A stretch of 64,000 nt of DNA from a virus (lineage: Duplodnaviria > Caudoviricetes): IMG/VR virus record IMGVR_UViG_3300011008_000012, positions 32,001 to 96,000 of that record; one strand, 5' to 3'. A program made the position numbers and the translations under genes. The number at the start of each line of letters is the position of its first letter. Position 1 is the first letter of the stretch. The notes beneath the pieces were generated by a model. The model was not told the DNA's origin, searched no databases, and saw nothing but the letters and a program-made list of their open reading frames with translations. Positions 1,863 to 64,000 of this stretch are shown piece by piece.

Positions 1863-1947
1863 GCCGGCATGGTGAAATTGGCAAACACGTCGGCCTCAAG
1901 TACCGATGCCGCATGGCTTGAGAGTTCGAGTCTCTCTGCCGGCACCA
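1863..1947 (+). tRNA. tRNA-Leu(CAA)
   Basis: GCCGGCA/TGCCGGC acceptor stem, D-loop TGGCAAA, anticodon loop CTCAAGT, long variable arm, GAGAG-TTCGAGT-CTCTC T-arm, encoded CCA end. Confidence 0.93.
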
Positions 1948-58000: not shown

Positions 58001-61000
58001 TTCGAGAGCATTTAAGCGGCTATTTAATACGTCGAGCTGCCCCATGCCGGAAACATTAACATCGACGTCTACTTTCTTCCCTTCGGTCTCTTCGATGTTT
58101 TGTTGCAGTGCGTCGGTGGCTTCGTTGGCCTCTTCTGTACTGACTTGCATATCAGTCTGGAGATCATCCGGAACAACTTCTGCCCAATTAATGTCAGCGA
58201 CCTGACCATACTCCTTGATCATCGCCGCAAGCTCTTCACGGCTCATATGCATAACCTGGGCGAAGGCATCAAATGCGTCGTTGTCGGCTATCGACAGGGT
58301 CACCTCATCGCCAACACGGTCAATTTCTACGCCGACCTCAGAAAGCTCATCCTTGAGGGCTACGGCGCTATCGATCCAATTCGATAACCCCTTTGTGCCA
58401 TACCGGTCATCTGTCGCTCCGTCATACCATGCCTCACGTTCGGCGATCAGTGCCTCCAGCTGTCTGGCGGCACTCTCCAAGCCTTGTGAGAAGTCTATGA
58501 ACTGCGTAAGCCCCATCTTCTCAGCGATATCCCACGTTTTGGCTTCGGAGCCGATAATCCCCTTACCGAGGAGTTCTTCCATTTCCTCAACTGCTTCGGC
58601 GTAGGTGATGTATTCGTTATTGGTATCGGCGCTCAGAGATTTCTTTAGCTCGTCGGCGGCCTCTTCTACGCCACGCATAGAGTCGGCAAGCATACCATAG
58701 TGTTCTGCAAGCTCGTCAACCGGGTCGACGGGTAGGTTACGGGCGGCATTGATGACACTCTTCAACGCGGTCGTCTGCTCGTCGGTCAGGTCGGCTGTTT
58801 TAGCAAAATCTTCCAAAGACCTGATGAAGTCATCCGGCGATTCACGCAATAGCTTCTTTAAGCCTTCTTCAAGATTTCCGAAGCCTTCTGCTTCCGCGTC
58901 AATATATTCCAGAAGCTCAGGGAACTGCTGAACTAGCTCAAAGACACCCTCCGGCGTTATGTCGCCATTTCGCAGATCAACCAAAGCGGTAGTCAATGTA
59001 TCGATGTCCGAGGTAAGGGTGCCAAGCCCTTCAAGTGTTTCTGAGAGCCTAAGGTTGTCATACTCATGCCGAATGGCTGCGACGCTTTCTGCGACGCCCA
59101 TATTGGCAAAATCGAGGTTTGATGCTGCCTCTGCGACGAGATCGAGTTCGTCGTCGCCTATCTCTCTGATCCACGACAAAAGCTCGACTCCGAACTGCTC
59201 CTTTAAGGTCGCAAGCGCTTCAGACCCGTATCTGCCAGCTGTTTTGGCCGCGCCATTAGAACCGGCAAATATGTCCCAAATATCGTCCAGCGCGTCCGTG
59301 AGCTCTTCGGATAACCCAACGAATTTATTTAGTTCTTTTTCCGCAGGCTTGGCCTCGTCGGCAAGAGCCTTAAACCCGTCCGCGATTTGTCCTATAGTCC
59401 ATCCGGCAAAACTAAAGCCGTTTCCAGAGAAAAGATCGTAAAGCTGTTTAACGTCTTCGGGAGACATATCGCTGACAAACTCGTCCCATGCGGTGCGCCA
59501 CTCGTCAAGCGCCTTTGCCGTCTGACGCTCGGTCATCCCCTCGGTATCGATACCGCCGAGGACGCTTTCCCACATCTGCCGTATAGCCTCATCGACGTTG
59601 ATTATACCGATGTTGCTATTGATCGTATTGGCAACAGCTTCCGCAAAGTCCTCGCCGGTCTCCATGCCGGCTTCAACAGCGGCCAGCTTCAGAACACTTT
59701 CGGGAAATAGTTCAGATACATCTTCGGCGCTGATACCGTTGTTCCCGGTTGCCTTCTCTTTGAGCGCATCGATAAACGGCTGATTCATTGACCCAGATAT
59801 GAAGTCGTCGACAGCCTTCTGGGCATCACGAGCAACCTCTTCTTCGGTCTTGGTGTAATCGATAATCTCTTTAATCTGGTCAAGCCAATCTGCGTTGGCC
59901 TCTGGAGCCAAAGAGAGAGTTGAGTAGATGCTGAGCAGCGTATCAAGATCCTCAGCAAGAAGCTCGCGATACTCATCGGCACCATCGTTGACCATCTCCT
60001 GCTCGAACTGGATCTTTTCCAACAGATTCATATTCCGCAGGACCGACGTTCCTTCGCCTCGTGCAAGGCTATAATCTATCCCAACATCAACAACTTGAGT
60101 TTTTGACAATAGTTTTCGCGCGTCGTCTATTGCCTCTTGTTGTTCAAGAGCTGCTATCTGTCGTTTTAGCTCTAACTGTGATTCAAGGTCTGAGTTCGCC
60201 GTTTCAAGCCGACTAAGTTCCTCTTGCTCAACGAGTGTGAGTCCGCCCTTGGCATTCAACTCGTCGATTCGCGTCTGTGTGGTGTTTAACTCAGAATTTA
60301 GACTCTCTATATCAGACTGTGCACTGTCATAAGCAGCCCTGGATTTCTCCGCTGCTTTCTTGGCCTCATTAAAGGATACTATAAGCGCATCAACAATTTT
60401 TACAACGCCTACTATCAGGGATGCTGCGGCGACAAAGCCAAATATTCCCGTCGATAGCGCACCCATTCCTTCTGCTGCGAGGTTAGCCGCTGTGGCAAGA
60501 TCTTTAATGGATGTAACTCCAGTTGCAAGCCCACTTGTTGTAAATAGAGCGCTTAATGTTTGCTTGAGTATCAAATAATTTGTCGATATATATTTATGGA
60601 TACATATCAATTTGGAGGGTGATTATATGGACCAAATTACAGACCAACTTCTTAAAATCAAGTCGCTTTGGGATAATGGCGTGTTATCTGAAAGTGAATT
60701 CAACGAGTTGAAACAAAGGATTATTTCAGAAGATTACCATTCGACAGACAATGAATCTGAAACAAAGGAAAAATTGTATACAGTTAGCCTTGTAGCGTAT
60801 ACAAGGGAACAAAAAATTCCGACAATTCAAACAATCCGCGAACTAACCGGATTGGGATTGGCCGATGCAAAAGATCTGATCGAAACCTTGCCGCACGTTA
60901 TTCGCGATAATGTACCAATGTCTGAATGTATTGATATCAAAAACAGTTTTGCGACCAATAAAGCAGTGGTTGTTATAGAAGAATCCCGGGTCACGTCAGA

Positions 61001-64000
61001 ATCACATCCAACGGGAGCATATTTCGGCAATACAGTTCTTAGTGAAAATCCATCTTGCCCCTACTGCCACTCACCCGACGTAAAGAAAATCACCATGACT
61101 AAGAAGCTCGCTAAAGGTTGGGTGTTCGGTCTGGCCGCTGCGTCAACGCTCACGAAGGAATGGCATTGTAATAACTGTAAAAGCGATTTTTAATTCTTAT
61201 TATAGGAGATACTACGAATCATGAATAATAAGAAATGTATTATTGTTACTTCGCGGACCGGTTCTAAAACTCTTTGTGGGCATTGTTCTCATTGTCAGGA
61301 ATTCGTTGAGCTAACGGACATTGATAACATACCGAAAGAGCTCTTTGTATAAGTCCCGGGATATCGGCCTTTGGGTCGATAGTATGGTCGTCGTCATAAT
61401 AGAACCTAAACGCCTTGTGAACTCTATCGCAGTAAAATTGCATCTGAGTATACCCGTAATAATCGCCGCCTCCCCAATGGGTGATTTCCGGCGTAGCGAA
61501 TTTTTCATAACAATTCATAAAACCATCCTTTCATTCGTATACCCGCTCAGGTATTAAACGTGAATTATTGAACGTTAGTATACCGGAACGGGTATAATAT
61601 GTATTATATTGTTTTTATCCCATCCATAAAACCAGTCAAGGGATTGTGACCGCATTGTTATTCAAACTCTATACTGCTTCTGAAATTGGACTTTCATGCC
61701 GGTCTCTCACCGGCGAGCATAGAACCGATACAGTCTAACAAAGAAAGCTATATCGGCAATTCCGACTGTCTCTCACACTATTTGACACATAATATGTATG
61801 GTGGTATTATGACCTTGCGCATTTGACTCTCTGTCGGCTTAGTACGTTTGACAACGGGACGGAACCGCCGTCCAGAGAGGAGTGATTAGCGTGAAGAAGG
61901 TCATCAAGACCACGGTTAAGGTTGAAACGAAAGTGAAAACCAAAGCCGTCTCAAGGGCGCAAGTCCGAGTTCGACGCGGTTGATCCGTGCGCCGGGACGT
62001 GTATTGGCGCGTCCCGTTATTTTTTATGTGTAAATAGTGAACCTCCTTACAGTCTGTGAGCCTTCCCGTTCATCACAAATTCCAACGTGATGCAGTCCCC
62101 AGACGAAAAAGATTTGTATGTCTTGAAATAAAACTACGTCTGCTGTATTATTATTAACAGGCGCAACGAAATCCGGCGAAGAGAGATGTTGACGGCTTGA
62201 CTCTCTAAGTCAGGAAAGTAGGTGATATAATGGCGCAGATCAAAGTGAAAACCGAGATCAAGGTGAAAATCCGCACCACGGTGCGGGTTGCCACCCGCTG
62301 CCGTTGATCGGCGCTTAGGGAGTCAGTCACCGCTGGCTCCCGTCTTTATTTCATATACAAAATTTTTCGATAGGGGAGAGGGGCTTGGTTGCGTGATTGC
62401 CCATTGTATACGACCAGTAGCGTTATTGTTTAGCCTAGGCCAACCATCCACTTCTTTCCGCCTTTCGGCTCCTCTCGCGCTTGTCCGTTAGGGCTACGCT
62501 GTGGCAAGATGGTATTAGGGGTTCCCCGCAGTTTGAAGGTTTACGCAACGATGGGTTCACACCCATCGTGGGCAAATTCATTTGAACTACCAAAATTGTG
62601 AATCAAAACGCCGATACCCAACCCGGCAATTGCTGTACCGAGTGGACCGAGCGCGGATGTAATATGTCCAATAGCTCCGGCAATGGGTTCTAGGAGTTCC
62701 AATACGTTGGTGCCAATGTCAACGATGCTATTTACAAAGCCGGAATCGATGGCTGTCCGGCTCAGCTCCTGGAGCGCGGCCTTGAATGTGTTGATATGCG
62801 CCGTCATGCTGTCCAGGAAGACGTCATACGCGCCCTCAAGTGCGCCGGCGCTGTCGGCCATAGCTTCCATGGCTCCGGTCGCTTCACCGAACTGCCCCAT
62901 GAGGCTGCTGAACACGTCTTGCTGTCGCGTACCGGCCAAAGCAGTGGTAATGGCGGCTTTAACATCTGTGCTGAGTGTGCTCCACTTGTCCGCCAGATCA
63001 CTTAAAACCTCGAACGGATTACGAAGTGCACCAGTTGCCTCCTGTAACTGAACTCCTCCGCTTGTAAGCGCGTCGATCAGTTCTTGGTACTTCGCCTCGT
63101 TCCATACCTCGCCAGTTTCTTCAATCTCTGTTTTGACATTTCTGAGTCTGGCAATGATCGTTCGCAGACCGGTGGAAGATTTGGAAATATTCTGGACCGT
63201 TGTATTTGCGGCTGTCAGCATGGCTATCGACTGATCGATAGTCATTCCGGATTGAGCCATCATCGAGGAGGCATTGTTCATGCCCTCCGCAATCTGGGAT
63301 ACTGAAATGGGGAAGTTGTTACCAACTTTCACCATTTTATCCATGATAGACTCAATGTCTTCAACGCCCTTCCCATAAGCCTTGACGATAGCGGTTACAG
63401 CGTCAGATGCAGCCGACGGATCAATGTCGCCGACGTTTTGCAGCATAGCAGTAAATTTTGCCAGGTCATGGGATTCTTCCAGACTATAGCCAAGTCTTGA
63501 GTAAACCGTCGCCATGTTGACCAGATCGGTTATGGAGGCGCTCATATCCTTTGCCGTCTGAGCCATCGTGCTGCCAAAGCGGCTCATCGTCTCATTGTCC
63601 GCACTAGTTACGATCTGAAGCTGTGTATATGCGTCGTTCAGCTCGATGGCCGTACTGACCATCTCTTTCATTTGCGCGATCGTAGATTGTATGATACGGA
63701 ACGTGCTGAACGTCATGGCGACATATTGCGTCAGGCCAGCCTTCAGATTTCCAAAGAAAGCGGCAAGGCTCGATCCGGCGTTGTTTACGTTACCAGATAT
63801 GTTGGTCACCTCGCTCCGTAGATGGGCGAGTTTAGCGCGGGCCTCATCCGCGGGCATTCCTTTAAGGTCTCCGGCAAGCCGTTCAAGGGCGGCTATGAGA
63901 TTATTAACTTGCGCAACAGTTGACGGATCGGCGGCGCCTTTGCCGAGAGCAATCTTGTCTTGCAGTCCATGCAGCGTATTTAACATGGTGCTGACCTGAT
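55091..64000 (-). CDS. Tape measure protein, spliced (join <64000-62589 + 60583-55091; >2300 aa; 5' end outside window)
   Basis: TP901-type TMP core in 62589-63986, long coiled coils, GYKTGG..GLAWVDG...PE C-terminus; splice gives in-frame IHNFG|TNYLIL. Confidence 0.88.
60627..61193 (+). CDS. SHOCT + ribosomal L7/L12 C-terminal-like + zinc-ribbon protein (intron cargo, antisense)
   Basis: LLKIKSLWDNGVLSESEFNELKQRI; KIPTIQTIRELTGLGLADAKDLIE; CPYC...CNNC. Confidence 0.75.
   Translation: MDQITDQLLKIKSLWDNGVLSESEFNELKQRIISEDYHSTDNESETKEKLYTVSLVAYTREQKIPTIQTIRELTGLGLADAKDLIETLPHVIRDNVPMSECIDIKNSFATNKAVVVIEESRVTSESHPTGAYFGNTVLSENPSCPYCHSPDVKKITMTKKLAKGWVFGLAAASTLTKEWHCNNCKSDF
61264..61518 (-). CDS. 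Small hypothetical protein (intron cargo)
   Basis: AAAGGATGG RBS; 84 aa with CYQC. Confidence 0.55.
   Translation of the reverse strand: MNCYEKFATPEITHWGGGDYYGYTQMQFYCDRVHKAFRFYYDDDHTIDPKADIPGLIQRALSVCYQCPLAQRIPDNENNAHKEF
61782..61810 (+). promoter_or_regulatory. Sigma-A promoter of minigene 1
   Basis: TTGACA-17 nt-TATTAT. Confidence 0.7.
61891..61983 (+). CDS. 30-aa cationic peptide MKKVIKTTVKVETKVKTKAVSRAQVRVRRG
   Basis: GAGGAG RBS, GTG start, own promoter and terminator; paralog at 62230. Confidence 0.6.
   Translation: MKKVIKTTVKVETKVKTKAVSRAQVRVRRG
61993..62025 (+). terminator. Terminator of minigene 1
   Basis: CGGGACGTG-tattgg-CGCGTCCCG followed by TTATTTTTT. Confidence 0.75.
62123..62151 (+). 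promoter_or_regulatory. Sigma-A promoter of minigene 2
   Basis: TTGAAA-17 nt-TATTAT. Confidence 0.6.
62230..62307 (+). CDS. 25-aa cationic peptide MAQIKVKTEIKVKIRTTVRVATRCR
   Basis: AGGTGA RBS, ATG start, own promoter and terminator; shares KVKT, TTV and VRV with peptide 1. Confidence 0.6.
   Translation: MAQIKVKTEIKVKIRTTVRVATRCR
62318..62351 (+). terminator. Terminator of minigene 2
   Basis: GGGAGTCAG-tcaccg-CTGGCTCCC followed by GTCTTTATTT. Confidence 0.7.

What the first reader, a model, noticed from the sequence alone, without database searches (positions are those of the whole stretch)
61762..62401. Two paralogous antisense minigene cassettes nested in the P6 and P8 loops of a group I intron
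Seen: inside the intron core on the - strand, the loop closed by P8 (CACTATTT-ACACATAA / TTATGTGT-C-AAATAGTG) and the loop closed by the P6 extension each hold a complete + strand unit. Each unit has -35/17 nt/TATTAT, an ~80-nt leader containing TTGACTCTCT and CGGCTT, an RBS, a 25-30 codon ORF, GTTGATC, and a GGGA...TCCC terminator. The peptides are related (AAAGTGAAAACC and ACCACGGT are shared at DNA level), strongly cationic, and alternate charged/polar with V/I/T like an amphipathic beta-strand. In leader 1, CTCTCTG can pair with CAGAGAG over the RBS. Both ORFs are below the ORF-track cutoff. Inference: these are independently transcribed (perhaps lysogen-expressed) peptides whose perfect antisense is the late tail transcript or excised intron. 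They could form a type I toxin-antitoxin-like or exclusion module, or their RNAs could gate splicing of an essential tail gene. I know of no described intron with this layout.
Basis: partly seen in the sequence, partly recalled or inferred. Interest (0 to 1): 0.9.

Follow-up and report, generated by a model that had tools for sequence, protein, structure and literature searches.

The report
Minigenes nested in intron loops
A self-splicing intron in a phage tail gene carries, in two of its hairpin loops, small backward-facing genes with their own promoter and terminator that encode very basic 25-30-residue peptides; related phages have one or none, so they are real add-on units of unknown function.

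Summary
A 2020-nt group I intron (- strand, 62591..60572) splits the tape measure gene. An intron-less relative reads straight through the predicted joint (NF|I).

Four homologous introns were found in metagenomes. Two have plain short hairpins at P6a and P8. Two carry an orthologue of unit 1 in P8 only. Units 1 and 2 are therefore discrete insertions of about 250 and 270 nt into the apical loops.

All four family members keep these features on the + strand:
- a -35/17 nt/-10 promoter;
- a structured leader;
- a strong Shine-Dalgarno and start codon;
- a 19-30-codon ORF for a strictly alternating cationic peptide (net +7 to +10);
- an intrinsic terminator.

The RNA folds far better on the + strand, and the leader is more conserved than the intron core.

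Best reading: these are moron-like autonomous minigenes, possibly dual-function RNAs, housed where they spare the ribozyme. Their antisense orientation keeps their terminators from stopping tail-gene transcription. The toxin-antitoxin, exclusion and splice-gating ideas remain untested. No homologue or RNA data exist. Other first-stage notes on this same genome had flagged the stretch; nothing similar was noted on other DNA.

The parts
60572..62591 (-). Group I intron in the tape measure gene (2020 nt). Exon 1 ends at 62592 (..HNF); exon 2 starts at 60571 (ILKQ..).
   Evidence: The core aligns to bona fide group I introns of jumbo phages: SaP7 scores RF00028 51.9 bits. Cassette-free homologues score 28.3 bits (L029) and 35.8 bits, E 3.7e-7 (L042). 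Conservation breakpoints and codon phase agree in G001 and L042. Intron-less L039 aligns through the NF|I joint.
61776..62039 (-). P8 with its long extension: CACTATTTACACATAA (62039-62024) pairs with TTATGTGTCAAATAGTG (61792-61776) and closes unit 1.
   Evidence: MFE fold. Empty P8 in L029 is CGCTC-TATG-GAGTG and in L042 is CGCTC-GTAA-GAGCG. The second pair covaries: A-U, G-U, G-C.
62096..62376 (-). P6a extension: the stem 62376-62352 / 62120-62096 closes unit 2.
   Evidence: Inverted repeats I15 and I19. MFE fold. In L029, L037, L040 and L042 the same helix ends in a 2-4 nt loop.
61782..61810 (+). Unit 1 promoter, TTGACA-17-TATTAT. The -35 lies inside the P8 stem.
   Evidence: The same layout is kept in L040 (TTGACA-17-TAGAAT) and L037 (TTGAAA-17-TATAAT) despite different spacers.
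61817..61890 (+). Unit 1 leader, with the CUCUCUG/CAGAGAG hairpin and SD GAGAGGAG at 61875-61882.
   Evidence: Fold z -3.6 to -3.8 on the + strand against -1.0 on the - strand. The leader is 94% (L040) and 82% (L037) identical, above the intron core. Compensatory pairs.
61891..61983 (+). Unit 1 ORF: GTG start, 30 codons, MKKVIKTTVKVETKVKTKAVSRAQVRVRRG, TGA stop inside GTTGATC.
   Evidence: Collinear with the L040 ORF apart from one codon indel.
61993..62026 (+). Unit 1 intrinsic terminator and T run. The T run forms the 3' arm of the closing stem.
   Evidence: Conserved in L040 and L037.
62123..62151 (+). Unit 2 promoter, TTGAAA-17-TATTAT.
62158..62229 (+). Unit 2 leader, with the AGAGAG/CUCUCU hairpin and SD AGGTG at 62220-62224.
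   Evidence: z -3.84. The - strand z is -2.4.
62230..62307 (+). Unit 2 ORF: ATG start, 25 codons, MAQIKVKTEIKVKIRTTVRVATRCR, TGA stop inside GTTGATC.
62318..62351 (+). Unit 2 intrinsic terminator and T run.

Best explanation
Each unit is an autonomous, moron-like transcription unit lodged in an apical loop (P6a or P8) of a group I intron in the tape measure gene. A sigma-A-type promoter fires on the strand opposite the tail operon and makes an RNA of about 200 nt.

Features of that RNA:
- A highly conserved, structured 5' leader.
- A 5'-3' closing helix.
- A helix that pairs the start-codon region with the stop-codon region (the GTTGATC motif).
- A strong intrinsic terminator.
- A 19-30-codon ORF for a polycationic peptide with strict two-residue periodicity, that is, an amphipathic beta-strand with one K/R face and one V/I/T face.

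Why the ribozyme tolerates the units:
- They sit at the tips of peripheral helices.
- Their ends are mutually complementary (the promoter -35 and A-rich spacer against the terminator T run), which extends the intron helix and isolates the insert.
- In antisense orientation their terminators do not stop late transcription.

Shown: the insertions, the conserved gene signals, the strand-specific RNA structure and the conserved peptide pattern.

Inferred: transcription, translation, and a role as prophage- or early-expressed accessory products. The leader's anti-SD pairing probably holds translation in check. The target of the peptide or RNA is unknown; my guess is a polyanionic partner, nucleic acid/ribosome or membrane.
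For: Presence/absence among five homologous introns:
- L029/L030 and L042 have both loops empty.
- L037 and L040 have only P8 filled.
- The window has both filled.
- Inserts measure about 250 and 270 nt.

Conserved gene signals:
- All four units keep -35/17/-10 with diverged spacers.
- All keep Firmicute-type SD plus start. In L040, ATG replaces GTG at the same position.
- In L037 a 31-nt deletion is followed by a new ATG in the ancestral frame, 10 nt from the SD.

Peptide pattern:
- The hydrophobic moment peaks at 180 degrees in all four peptides (P <= 0.004 against shuffles), with net charge +7 to +10.
- They are the top scorers among 13,648 small ORFs of all loci.
- The win1 and L040 ORFs are collinear with one codon indel; pN/pS is 0.46; differences by codon position are 14/6/14.

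RNA structure:
- The + strand folds at -82.3 and -73.7 kcal/mol (z about -3.7), the - strand at -60.8 and -63.3 (z -1.0 and -2.4). All four units favour the + strand.
- Six base pairs change on both sides and stay paired.

Orientation: no terminator-like site lies on the - strand inside the units.
Against: - No RNA or ribosome data exist; no sequencing run was listed.
- There are only four family members in three phages, and no homologue elsewhere.
- The ORF is the least conserved part (62% and 50% identity) while the leader is the most conserved (94% and 82%). The RNA may therefore be the main product.
- pN/pS of 0.46 on 29 codons is weak, and the exact antisense frame gives 0.54.
- SD and start are partly paired in the MFE folds.
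- Peptide length varies from 19 to 30 residues.
Confidence: 0.68

Rival explanations
1. The units are small non-coding RNA genes. The conserved 5' leader is the functional domain, for example a trans-acting sRNA or a protein-binding RNA, and the short ORF is incidental or only a spacer.
For: The leader is 94% and 82% identical against 62% and 50% for the ORF, and exceeds the intron core at 84% and 81%. The + strand structure is strong, with compensatory pairs. ORF length is not conserved.
Against: SD plus start at proper spacing are kept in all four units, including a re-created in-frame ATG in L037. The period-2 cationic pattern is kept in all four despite low sequence identity. Indels between win1 and L040 are codon-sized. 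No convincing complementary target exists in the phage genome; the best matches are 11-12 nt, at chance level.
Confidence: 0.2
2. A type I toxin-antitoxin-like or antisense-gating module. Either the peptide is toxic and its perfect antisense (the late pre-mRNA or excised intron) neutralises it, or the cassette RNAs pair with the intron loops to control splicing of the tail gene.
For: The mRNA architecture resembles type I toxin mRNAs: a long structured leader, a 5'-3' closing helix, and SD/start occlusion. About 200 nt of each unit is perfectly complementary to the intron RNA by construction.
Against: The peptides have no hydrophobic segment (mean hydropathy -0.2 to -0.5). The only - strand promoter-like hit near the units is weak (9/12) and lies in the conserved ribozyme core. 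The hydrophobic - strand ORFs are not kept in L037. Two related phages manage without any unit and two with one, so splicing does not need them. The antisense orientation has a simpler explanation in terminator polarity.
Confidence: 0.08
3. The inserts are peripheral RNA domains of the ribozyme, or inert MITE-like DNA, and the + strand gene signals are chance.
For: Both inserts are bounded by imperfect inverted repeats and lie in loops that commonly carry extensions.
Against: The - strand folds poorly compared with the + strand. Promoter hexamers and the 17-nt spacing are kept in four copies with diverged spacers. SD/start and terminator polarity are kept. Only two copies exist in the genome and none was found elsewhere, unlike a MITE. 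No clear target-site duplication.
Confidence: 0.04

Closest known systems
Morons of lambdoid phages (HK97/HK022 concept: promoter + gene + terminator present in one phage and absent between the same neighbours in relatives)
   Same: A self-contained transcription unit with its own promoter and intrinsic terminator. Presence/absence polymorphism between otherwise collinear relatives. Orientation independent of the surrounding late operon.
   Different: It is lodged inside ribozyme loops of an intron rather than between genes. It is only about 250-270 nt, with a 19-30-codon ORF and a long conserved leader. Its ends are complementary and double as an intron helix. Expression from a prophage is not shown.
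Intron-encoded ORFs in peripheral loops of group I introns, including antisense homing endonuclease genes of nuclear rDNA introns (PMC9548176) and group I introns in tape measure genes of Bacillus prophages (PMC2504315)
   Same: Cargo sits in apical loops (P6, P8, P9) of a group I intron. Antisense cargo has precedent. Tape measure genes are known intron targets.
   Different: The cargo is not a homing endonuclease and has no recognised domain. There are two paralogous minigenes, each with bacterial promoter and terminator signals. No role in intron mobility is apparent.
Type I toxin mRNAs (hok, aapA1, bsrG/SR4, yonT/SR6 of SPbeta)
   Same: A short ORF behind a long structured leader, a 5'-3' long-range helix, an occluded SD/start, and a strong terminator. 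The phage context is SPbeta-like.
   Different: The peptides are polycationic beta-type, not hydrophobic helices. There is no dedicated antitoxin RNA gene. Toxicity is untested.
PeSL-type mobile regulatory cassettes of T4-type phages (promoter/stem-loop modules flanking small ORFs; recalled from memory, not checked here)
   Same: Small ORFs are framed by promoter and terminator modules that can recombine. The L037 unit looks mosaic: its ends resemble unit 2 and its leader resembles unit 1.
   Different: Different phage group and sequence. The location here is an intron loop. Recombination between the modules is only inferred.

Membership tests
Group I intron (Rfam RF00028) | Conserved core P3-P8 with P7 and J8/7, scored by the covariance model | tested here: inconclusive
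   The window scores only 12.4 bits, E 7.8, because of the inserts. Cassette-free homologues score 28.3 bits, E 0.0013, over the full model (L029) and 35.8 bits, E 3.7e-7 (L042). All are below the 50-bit gathering score. The core aligns to the SaP7 intron, which passes at 51.9 bits.
Group I intron (Rfam RF00028) | Removal restores a continuous host reading frame; the intron ends in G | tested here: met
   Exon 1 ends ..AAT TTT, the intron ends ..TATTTG, and exon 2 starts on a codon boundary in the window, G001 and L042. The spliced product aligns without a break at NF|I to intron-less L039 (E 9e-33).
Group I intron (Rfam RF00028) | P1 with a U-G pair at the 5' splice site, and P10 | tested here: inconclusive
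   By hand, CAATTTT/GAATTTG gives 6 of 7 pairs with a terminal U-G in the window and G001. The pairing is weak in L029, and I found no convincing P10. Self-splicing was not tested.
Moron | Own promoter and own terminator flanking the gene | tested here: met
   Consensus scans and conservation in four copies. These are sequence signals only.
Moron | Present in one phage, absent at the same place in relatives | tested here: met
Moron | Expressed from the prophage independently of lytic genes | not testable with these tools
   No sequencing run was listed. The genome has three tyrosine recombinase genes, consistent with a temperate life style.
Type I toxin-antitoxin | Small hydrophobic membrane toxin | tested here: not met
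   There is no hydrophobic stretch, and net charge is +7 to +10.
Type I toxin-antitoxin | Dedicated antisense RNA gene with its own promoter | tested here: not met
   The only - strand promoter-like site nearby is 9/12 and lies in the conserved ribozyme core.
MITE-like element | Terminal inverted repeats, target-site duplication, many copies | tested here: not met
   Inverted ends are present but are the promoter and terminator tails. No clear duplication. Two copies in the genome and none elsewhere.
Homing endonuclease gene | LAGLIDADG, GIY-YIG, HNH or His-Cys domain | tested here: not met
   No Pfam or PHROG hit for the peptides or for the 84-aa sense ORF.

The most novel reading that the evidence does not exclude
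The units are a mobile family of self-contained riboregulated micro-genes that colonise hairpin tips of ribozymes. Their products act on the phage's own biology. Either the RNAs duplex with the intron loops to time tape measure splicing, or the polycationic beta-peptides act as conditionally translated toxins or exclusion factors released when infection perturbs the RNA fold.
Probability: 0.12. Interest if true: 0.85.

Novelty: new variant of a known kind. Interest (0 to 1): 0.62.

Why it matters
Group I intron loops are known to house homing endonuclease genes. Here they house independent, oppositely oriented bacterial-type transcription units unrelated to intron mobility. Their ends serve three purposes at once: promoter, terminator tail and ribozyme helix.

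If they are expressed, this extends the moron concept to safe harbours inside ribozymes of essential late genes. It also adds a new family of polycationic beta-type micropeptides or structured RNAs to the phage accessory repertoire. The empty, single and double alleles give a natural series for testing how much cargo a ribozyme tolerates.

Tried and rejected
- Peptide homologues. phmmer of the 33-aa form against 1.84 billion representatives gave 0 hits. tblastn of both peptides against 50,697 phage records gave no match. The peptides are too short for the search for homologous proteins and the search for related loci. The ESM Atlas machine was busy twice.
- Antisense ORF. The 41-aa - strand ORF has no homologue. 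The - strand hydrophobic ORFs are absent in L037, so I rejected them as the coding frame.
- DNA patterns. AAAGTGAAAACC..GTTGATC gave 18 chance hits in IMG/VR, none of them a minigene. The conserved leader block gave nothing in JGI metagenomes or GTDB genomes, and only L040 in IMG/VR. Intron-core patterns added only L040 and L042.
- Sequencing runs: none was listed.
- Rfam: no family matches the units at E <= 10.
- Trans targets: complementarity of the unit RNAs to the phage genome reaches only 11-12 nt, at chance level.
- Gain/loss history: the tree of the five intron cores is unresolved, so the number of gains and losses cannot be inferred.
- Long-range pairing: I first considered 61759-61744 with 60595-60580 as P9. 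A local P9 hairpin is conserved instead.
- Not run: complex and structure prediction, as uninformative for 19-30-residue peptides.
Full report
**Setting.** The window is bases 32001-96000 of a 119,578-bp IMG/VR virus with direct terminal repeats. Relatives carry YomU/V/W/X-type tail genes, so it is an SPbeta-like phage of Firmicutes, probably from gut or rumen samples. Its genome has three tyrosine recombinase genes.

The tape measure gene (PF10145) runs on the - strand and is interrupted. The N-terminal ORF stops at 62541. The C-terminal frame is open only from 60622.

**The intron is real.**
- Rfam gives only 12.4 bits for the window.
- The - strand from about 62590 to 62380 aligns to introns of jumbo phages SaP7 and GXNNE2. 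These are bona fide group I introns (RF00028 51.9 and 46.7 bits).
- I found four homologous introns at the same site of the tape measure gene:
  - L029/L030 (ENA);
  - L037 (ENA);
  - L040/L046 (IMGVR_UViG_3300011008_000101);
  - L042 (JGI Ga0247608_10015854).
- The cassette-free homologues score 28.3 bits over the whole model (L029) and 35.8 bits, E 3.7e-7 (L042).
- Those alignments assign P3 (AACCTTC/GGAGGTT), P7 (AGACTGT/ACAGTC), J8/7 and P8 exactly as in my hand fold of the window.

**Intron boundaries.**
- Nucleotide conservation among the window, G001 and L042 starts right after exon 1 (..AAY YTT).
- It ends right after ..TATTTG / ..TTACTTG.
- Exon 2 starts on a codon boundary in all three. 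The conserved block before it changes frame and holds a stop in G001.
- L039 lacks an intron at this site. The joined window exons align straight through the joint: window ..LIHNF|ILKQ.., L039 ..ITNFISTM.. (39% over 184 residues, E 9e-33).
- The intron is therefore 62591..60572, 2020 nt.
- P1 (CAATTTT/GAATTTG with a terminal U-G) is only hand-derived. I found no clear P10.

**The units are discrete insertions.** The table gives the distance between conserved flanks at each loop.

| Intron | P6a (nt) | P8 (nt) |
|---|---|---|
| L042 | 2 | 12 |
| L029 | 3 | 12 |
| L040 | 4 | 261 |
| L037 | 4 | 267 |
| window | 273 | 262 |

- Empty P8 is a 5-bp stem with a tetraloop: CGCTC-GTAA-GAGCG in L042 and CGCTC-TATG-GAGTG in L029. 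Empty P6a is a short hairpin.
- MFE folding of the window's - strand recovers the long closing stems and P7.
- The closing stems are made of the unit's own ends. The promoter -35 and its A-rich spacer are complementary to the terminator's T run and the bases after it:
  - window unit 2: CTTGAAATAAA / TTTATTTCA;
  - L037: AATCTTGAAATAAAT / ATTTATTTCAAGATT, a perfect 15 bp;
  - window unit 1: ATTTGACACATAA / TTATGTGTAAAT.

**The + strand gene signals are conserved.**
- All four units have a -35/17 nt/-10 promoter, with spacers that differ: TTGACA/TATTAT, TTGACA/TAGAAT, TTGAAA/TATAAT and TTGAAA/TATTAT.
- All have a Firmicute-type SD (GAGAGGAG, GAGAGGGG or AGGTG) 5-10 nt before a start codon.
- L040 has ATG exactly where the window has GTG 61891. 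This fixes the unit 1 start and gives 30 codons.
- L037 has a 31-nt deletion across the old start and a new ATG in the ancestral frame.
- The peptides are:
  - MKKVIKTTVKVETKVKTKAVSRAQVRVRRG (window unit 1);
  - MAKAIATVKIKTTVKIRTVTRTKVRISHR (L040);
  - MAKVIVKVKTRIRVRIRRR (L037);
  - MAQIKVKTEIKVKIRTTVRVATRCR (window unit 2).
- Each has its maximal hydrophobic moment at 180 degrees (P <= 0.004 against shuffles) and net charge +7 to +10.
- They top 13,648 small ORFs of all loci fetched up to on an alternation score.
- Window unit 1 and L040 are collinear with one codon indel. pN/pS is 0.46, and second codon positions change least (14/6/14).
- This evidence for coding is modest. The exact antisense frame gives 0.54.
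- The hydrophobic - strand ORFs (34 and 41 aa in the window) are not kept in L037, so I take them as by-products.

**The RNA is strand-specific and constrained.**
- The predicted transcripts fold at -82.3 and -73.7 kcal/mol (z -3.6 to -3.8). Their complements fold at -60.8 and -63.3 (z -1.0 and -2.4). All four units favour the + strand.
- Common features are:
  - a 5'-3' closing helix (GCGCA/UGCGC in the window, GCACA/UGUGC in L037);
  - a CUCUCU/AGAGAG hairpin that covers part of the SD in unit 1 and L040;
  - a helix pairing the start region with the stop region, which explains the conserved GTTGATC;
  - the terminator.
- RNAalifold on the three P8 orthologues finds six pairs kept through changes on both sides.
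- Identity to L040 and L037 is 94% and 82% for the leader, 62% and 50% for the ORF, and 84% and 81% for the intron core. The RNA itself, or leader-mediated control, is under the strongest constraint.

**Why antisense, and why there.** No terminator-like site reads on the - strand inside the units. In sense orientation their terminators would stop tape measure transcription. Apical loops closed by long stems are the places where an insert least disturbs the core. These two points explain the layout without invoking antisense regulation.

The rest of the intron also carries variable, mostly antisense cargo:
- window: a 193-aa SHOCT / L7-L12-CTD / zinc-ribbon protein;
- G001 and L042: zinc-ribbon membrane proteins;
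- L029: a different membrane protein.

**Function.** Nothing here tests it. I commit to moron-like accessory minigenes whose RNA leader limits translation of a polycationic beta-type peptide (0.68 for the gene-unit reading; the peptide's target is a guess).

Rivals:
- A non-coding sRNA (0.2).
- A type I TA-like or splice-gating module (0.08). This is weakened by the non-hydrophobic peptides, by the absence of a dedicated antisense gene, and by relatives that splice with no unit.
- Chance signals on an inert insert (0.04).

**Novelty.** Group I introns in tape measure genes of Bacillus prophages are known (PMC2504315). Antisense endonuclease genes occur in nuclear group I introns (PMC9548176). 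I found no description of promoter-to-terminator minigenes nested in ribozyme loops, and no homologue of the peptides or units in any collection searched.

Noticed in passing
window 60612-61193 (+): A 193-aa gene antisense to the 3' part of the intron. It has a SHOCT motif, a ribosomal L7/L12 C-terminal domain (PF00542, 50.7 bits) and a split zinc ribbon. A 43-aa CxxC ORF follows at 61221-61352 (+) and overlaps an 84-aa sense ORF at 61264-61518 (-) that has no family hit.
   Followed up: partly
L035 9262-9946; L036 8989-10176; L045 6761-7974; L034 9229 onward; L031 7896 onward: Other SPbeta-like contigs also have the tape measure gene split near the same region. The inserts there are unrelated and look group I-like by eye, but fall below Rfam E 1. 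Each carries an antisense zinc-ribbon, SHOCT or DUF7129 gene. Antisense cargo in tape measure introns seems to be a family habit.
   Followed up: partly
window 62497-62510 and 60488-60501: There is an exact 14-nt direct repeat, CGCTGTGGCAAGAT. One copy lies in the conserved P4-P5 region of the intron and is also present in G001. The other lies in exon 2, 70 nt past the 3' splice site. About 0.01 such repeats are expected by chance in 2.4 kb. No explanation.
   Followed up: partly
L037 1755-2032: The L037 unit looks mosaic. Its promoter and closing-stem ends resemble window unit 2 (TCTTGAAATAAA / TTTATTTCA), while its leader and terminator hairpin resemble window unit 1. This hints at recombination among family members.
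   Followed up: partly
L036 1927-2255: A second, strong group I intron (RF00028 71.2 bits) lies next to the YomX-like gene of a related 127-kb phage contig. A GIY-YIG gene sits at the same place in another relative.
   Followed up: no
L046 1232-1876 (-) and 369-1082 (+): In G001 the same intron carries a 214-aa sense ORF with a faint proteasome-subunit-like hit (19.6 bits, below cut-off). It also carries a 237-aa antisense protein with a zinc ribbon, transmembrane segments and a second zinc ribbon.
   Followed up: partly
window 61839-61943 (-) and 62205-62330 (-): The strand opposite the peptide ORFs reads as hydrophobic 34- and 41-aa ORFs that look toxin-like. They are not conserved in L037 and lack good start signals.
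   Followed up: yes
window 1863-1944 (+): A tRNA gene (RF00005, 51.2 bits), the only Rfam gathering-level hit in the window.
   Followed up: no
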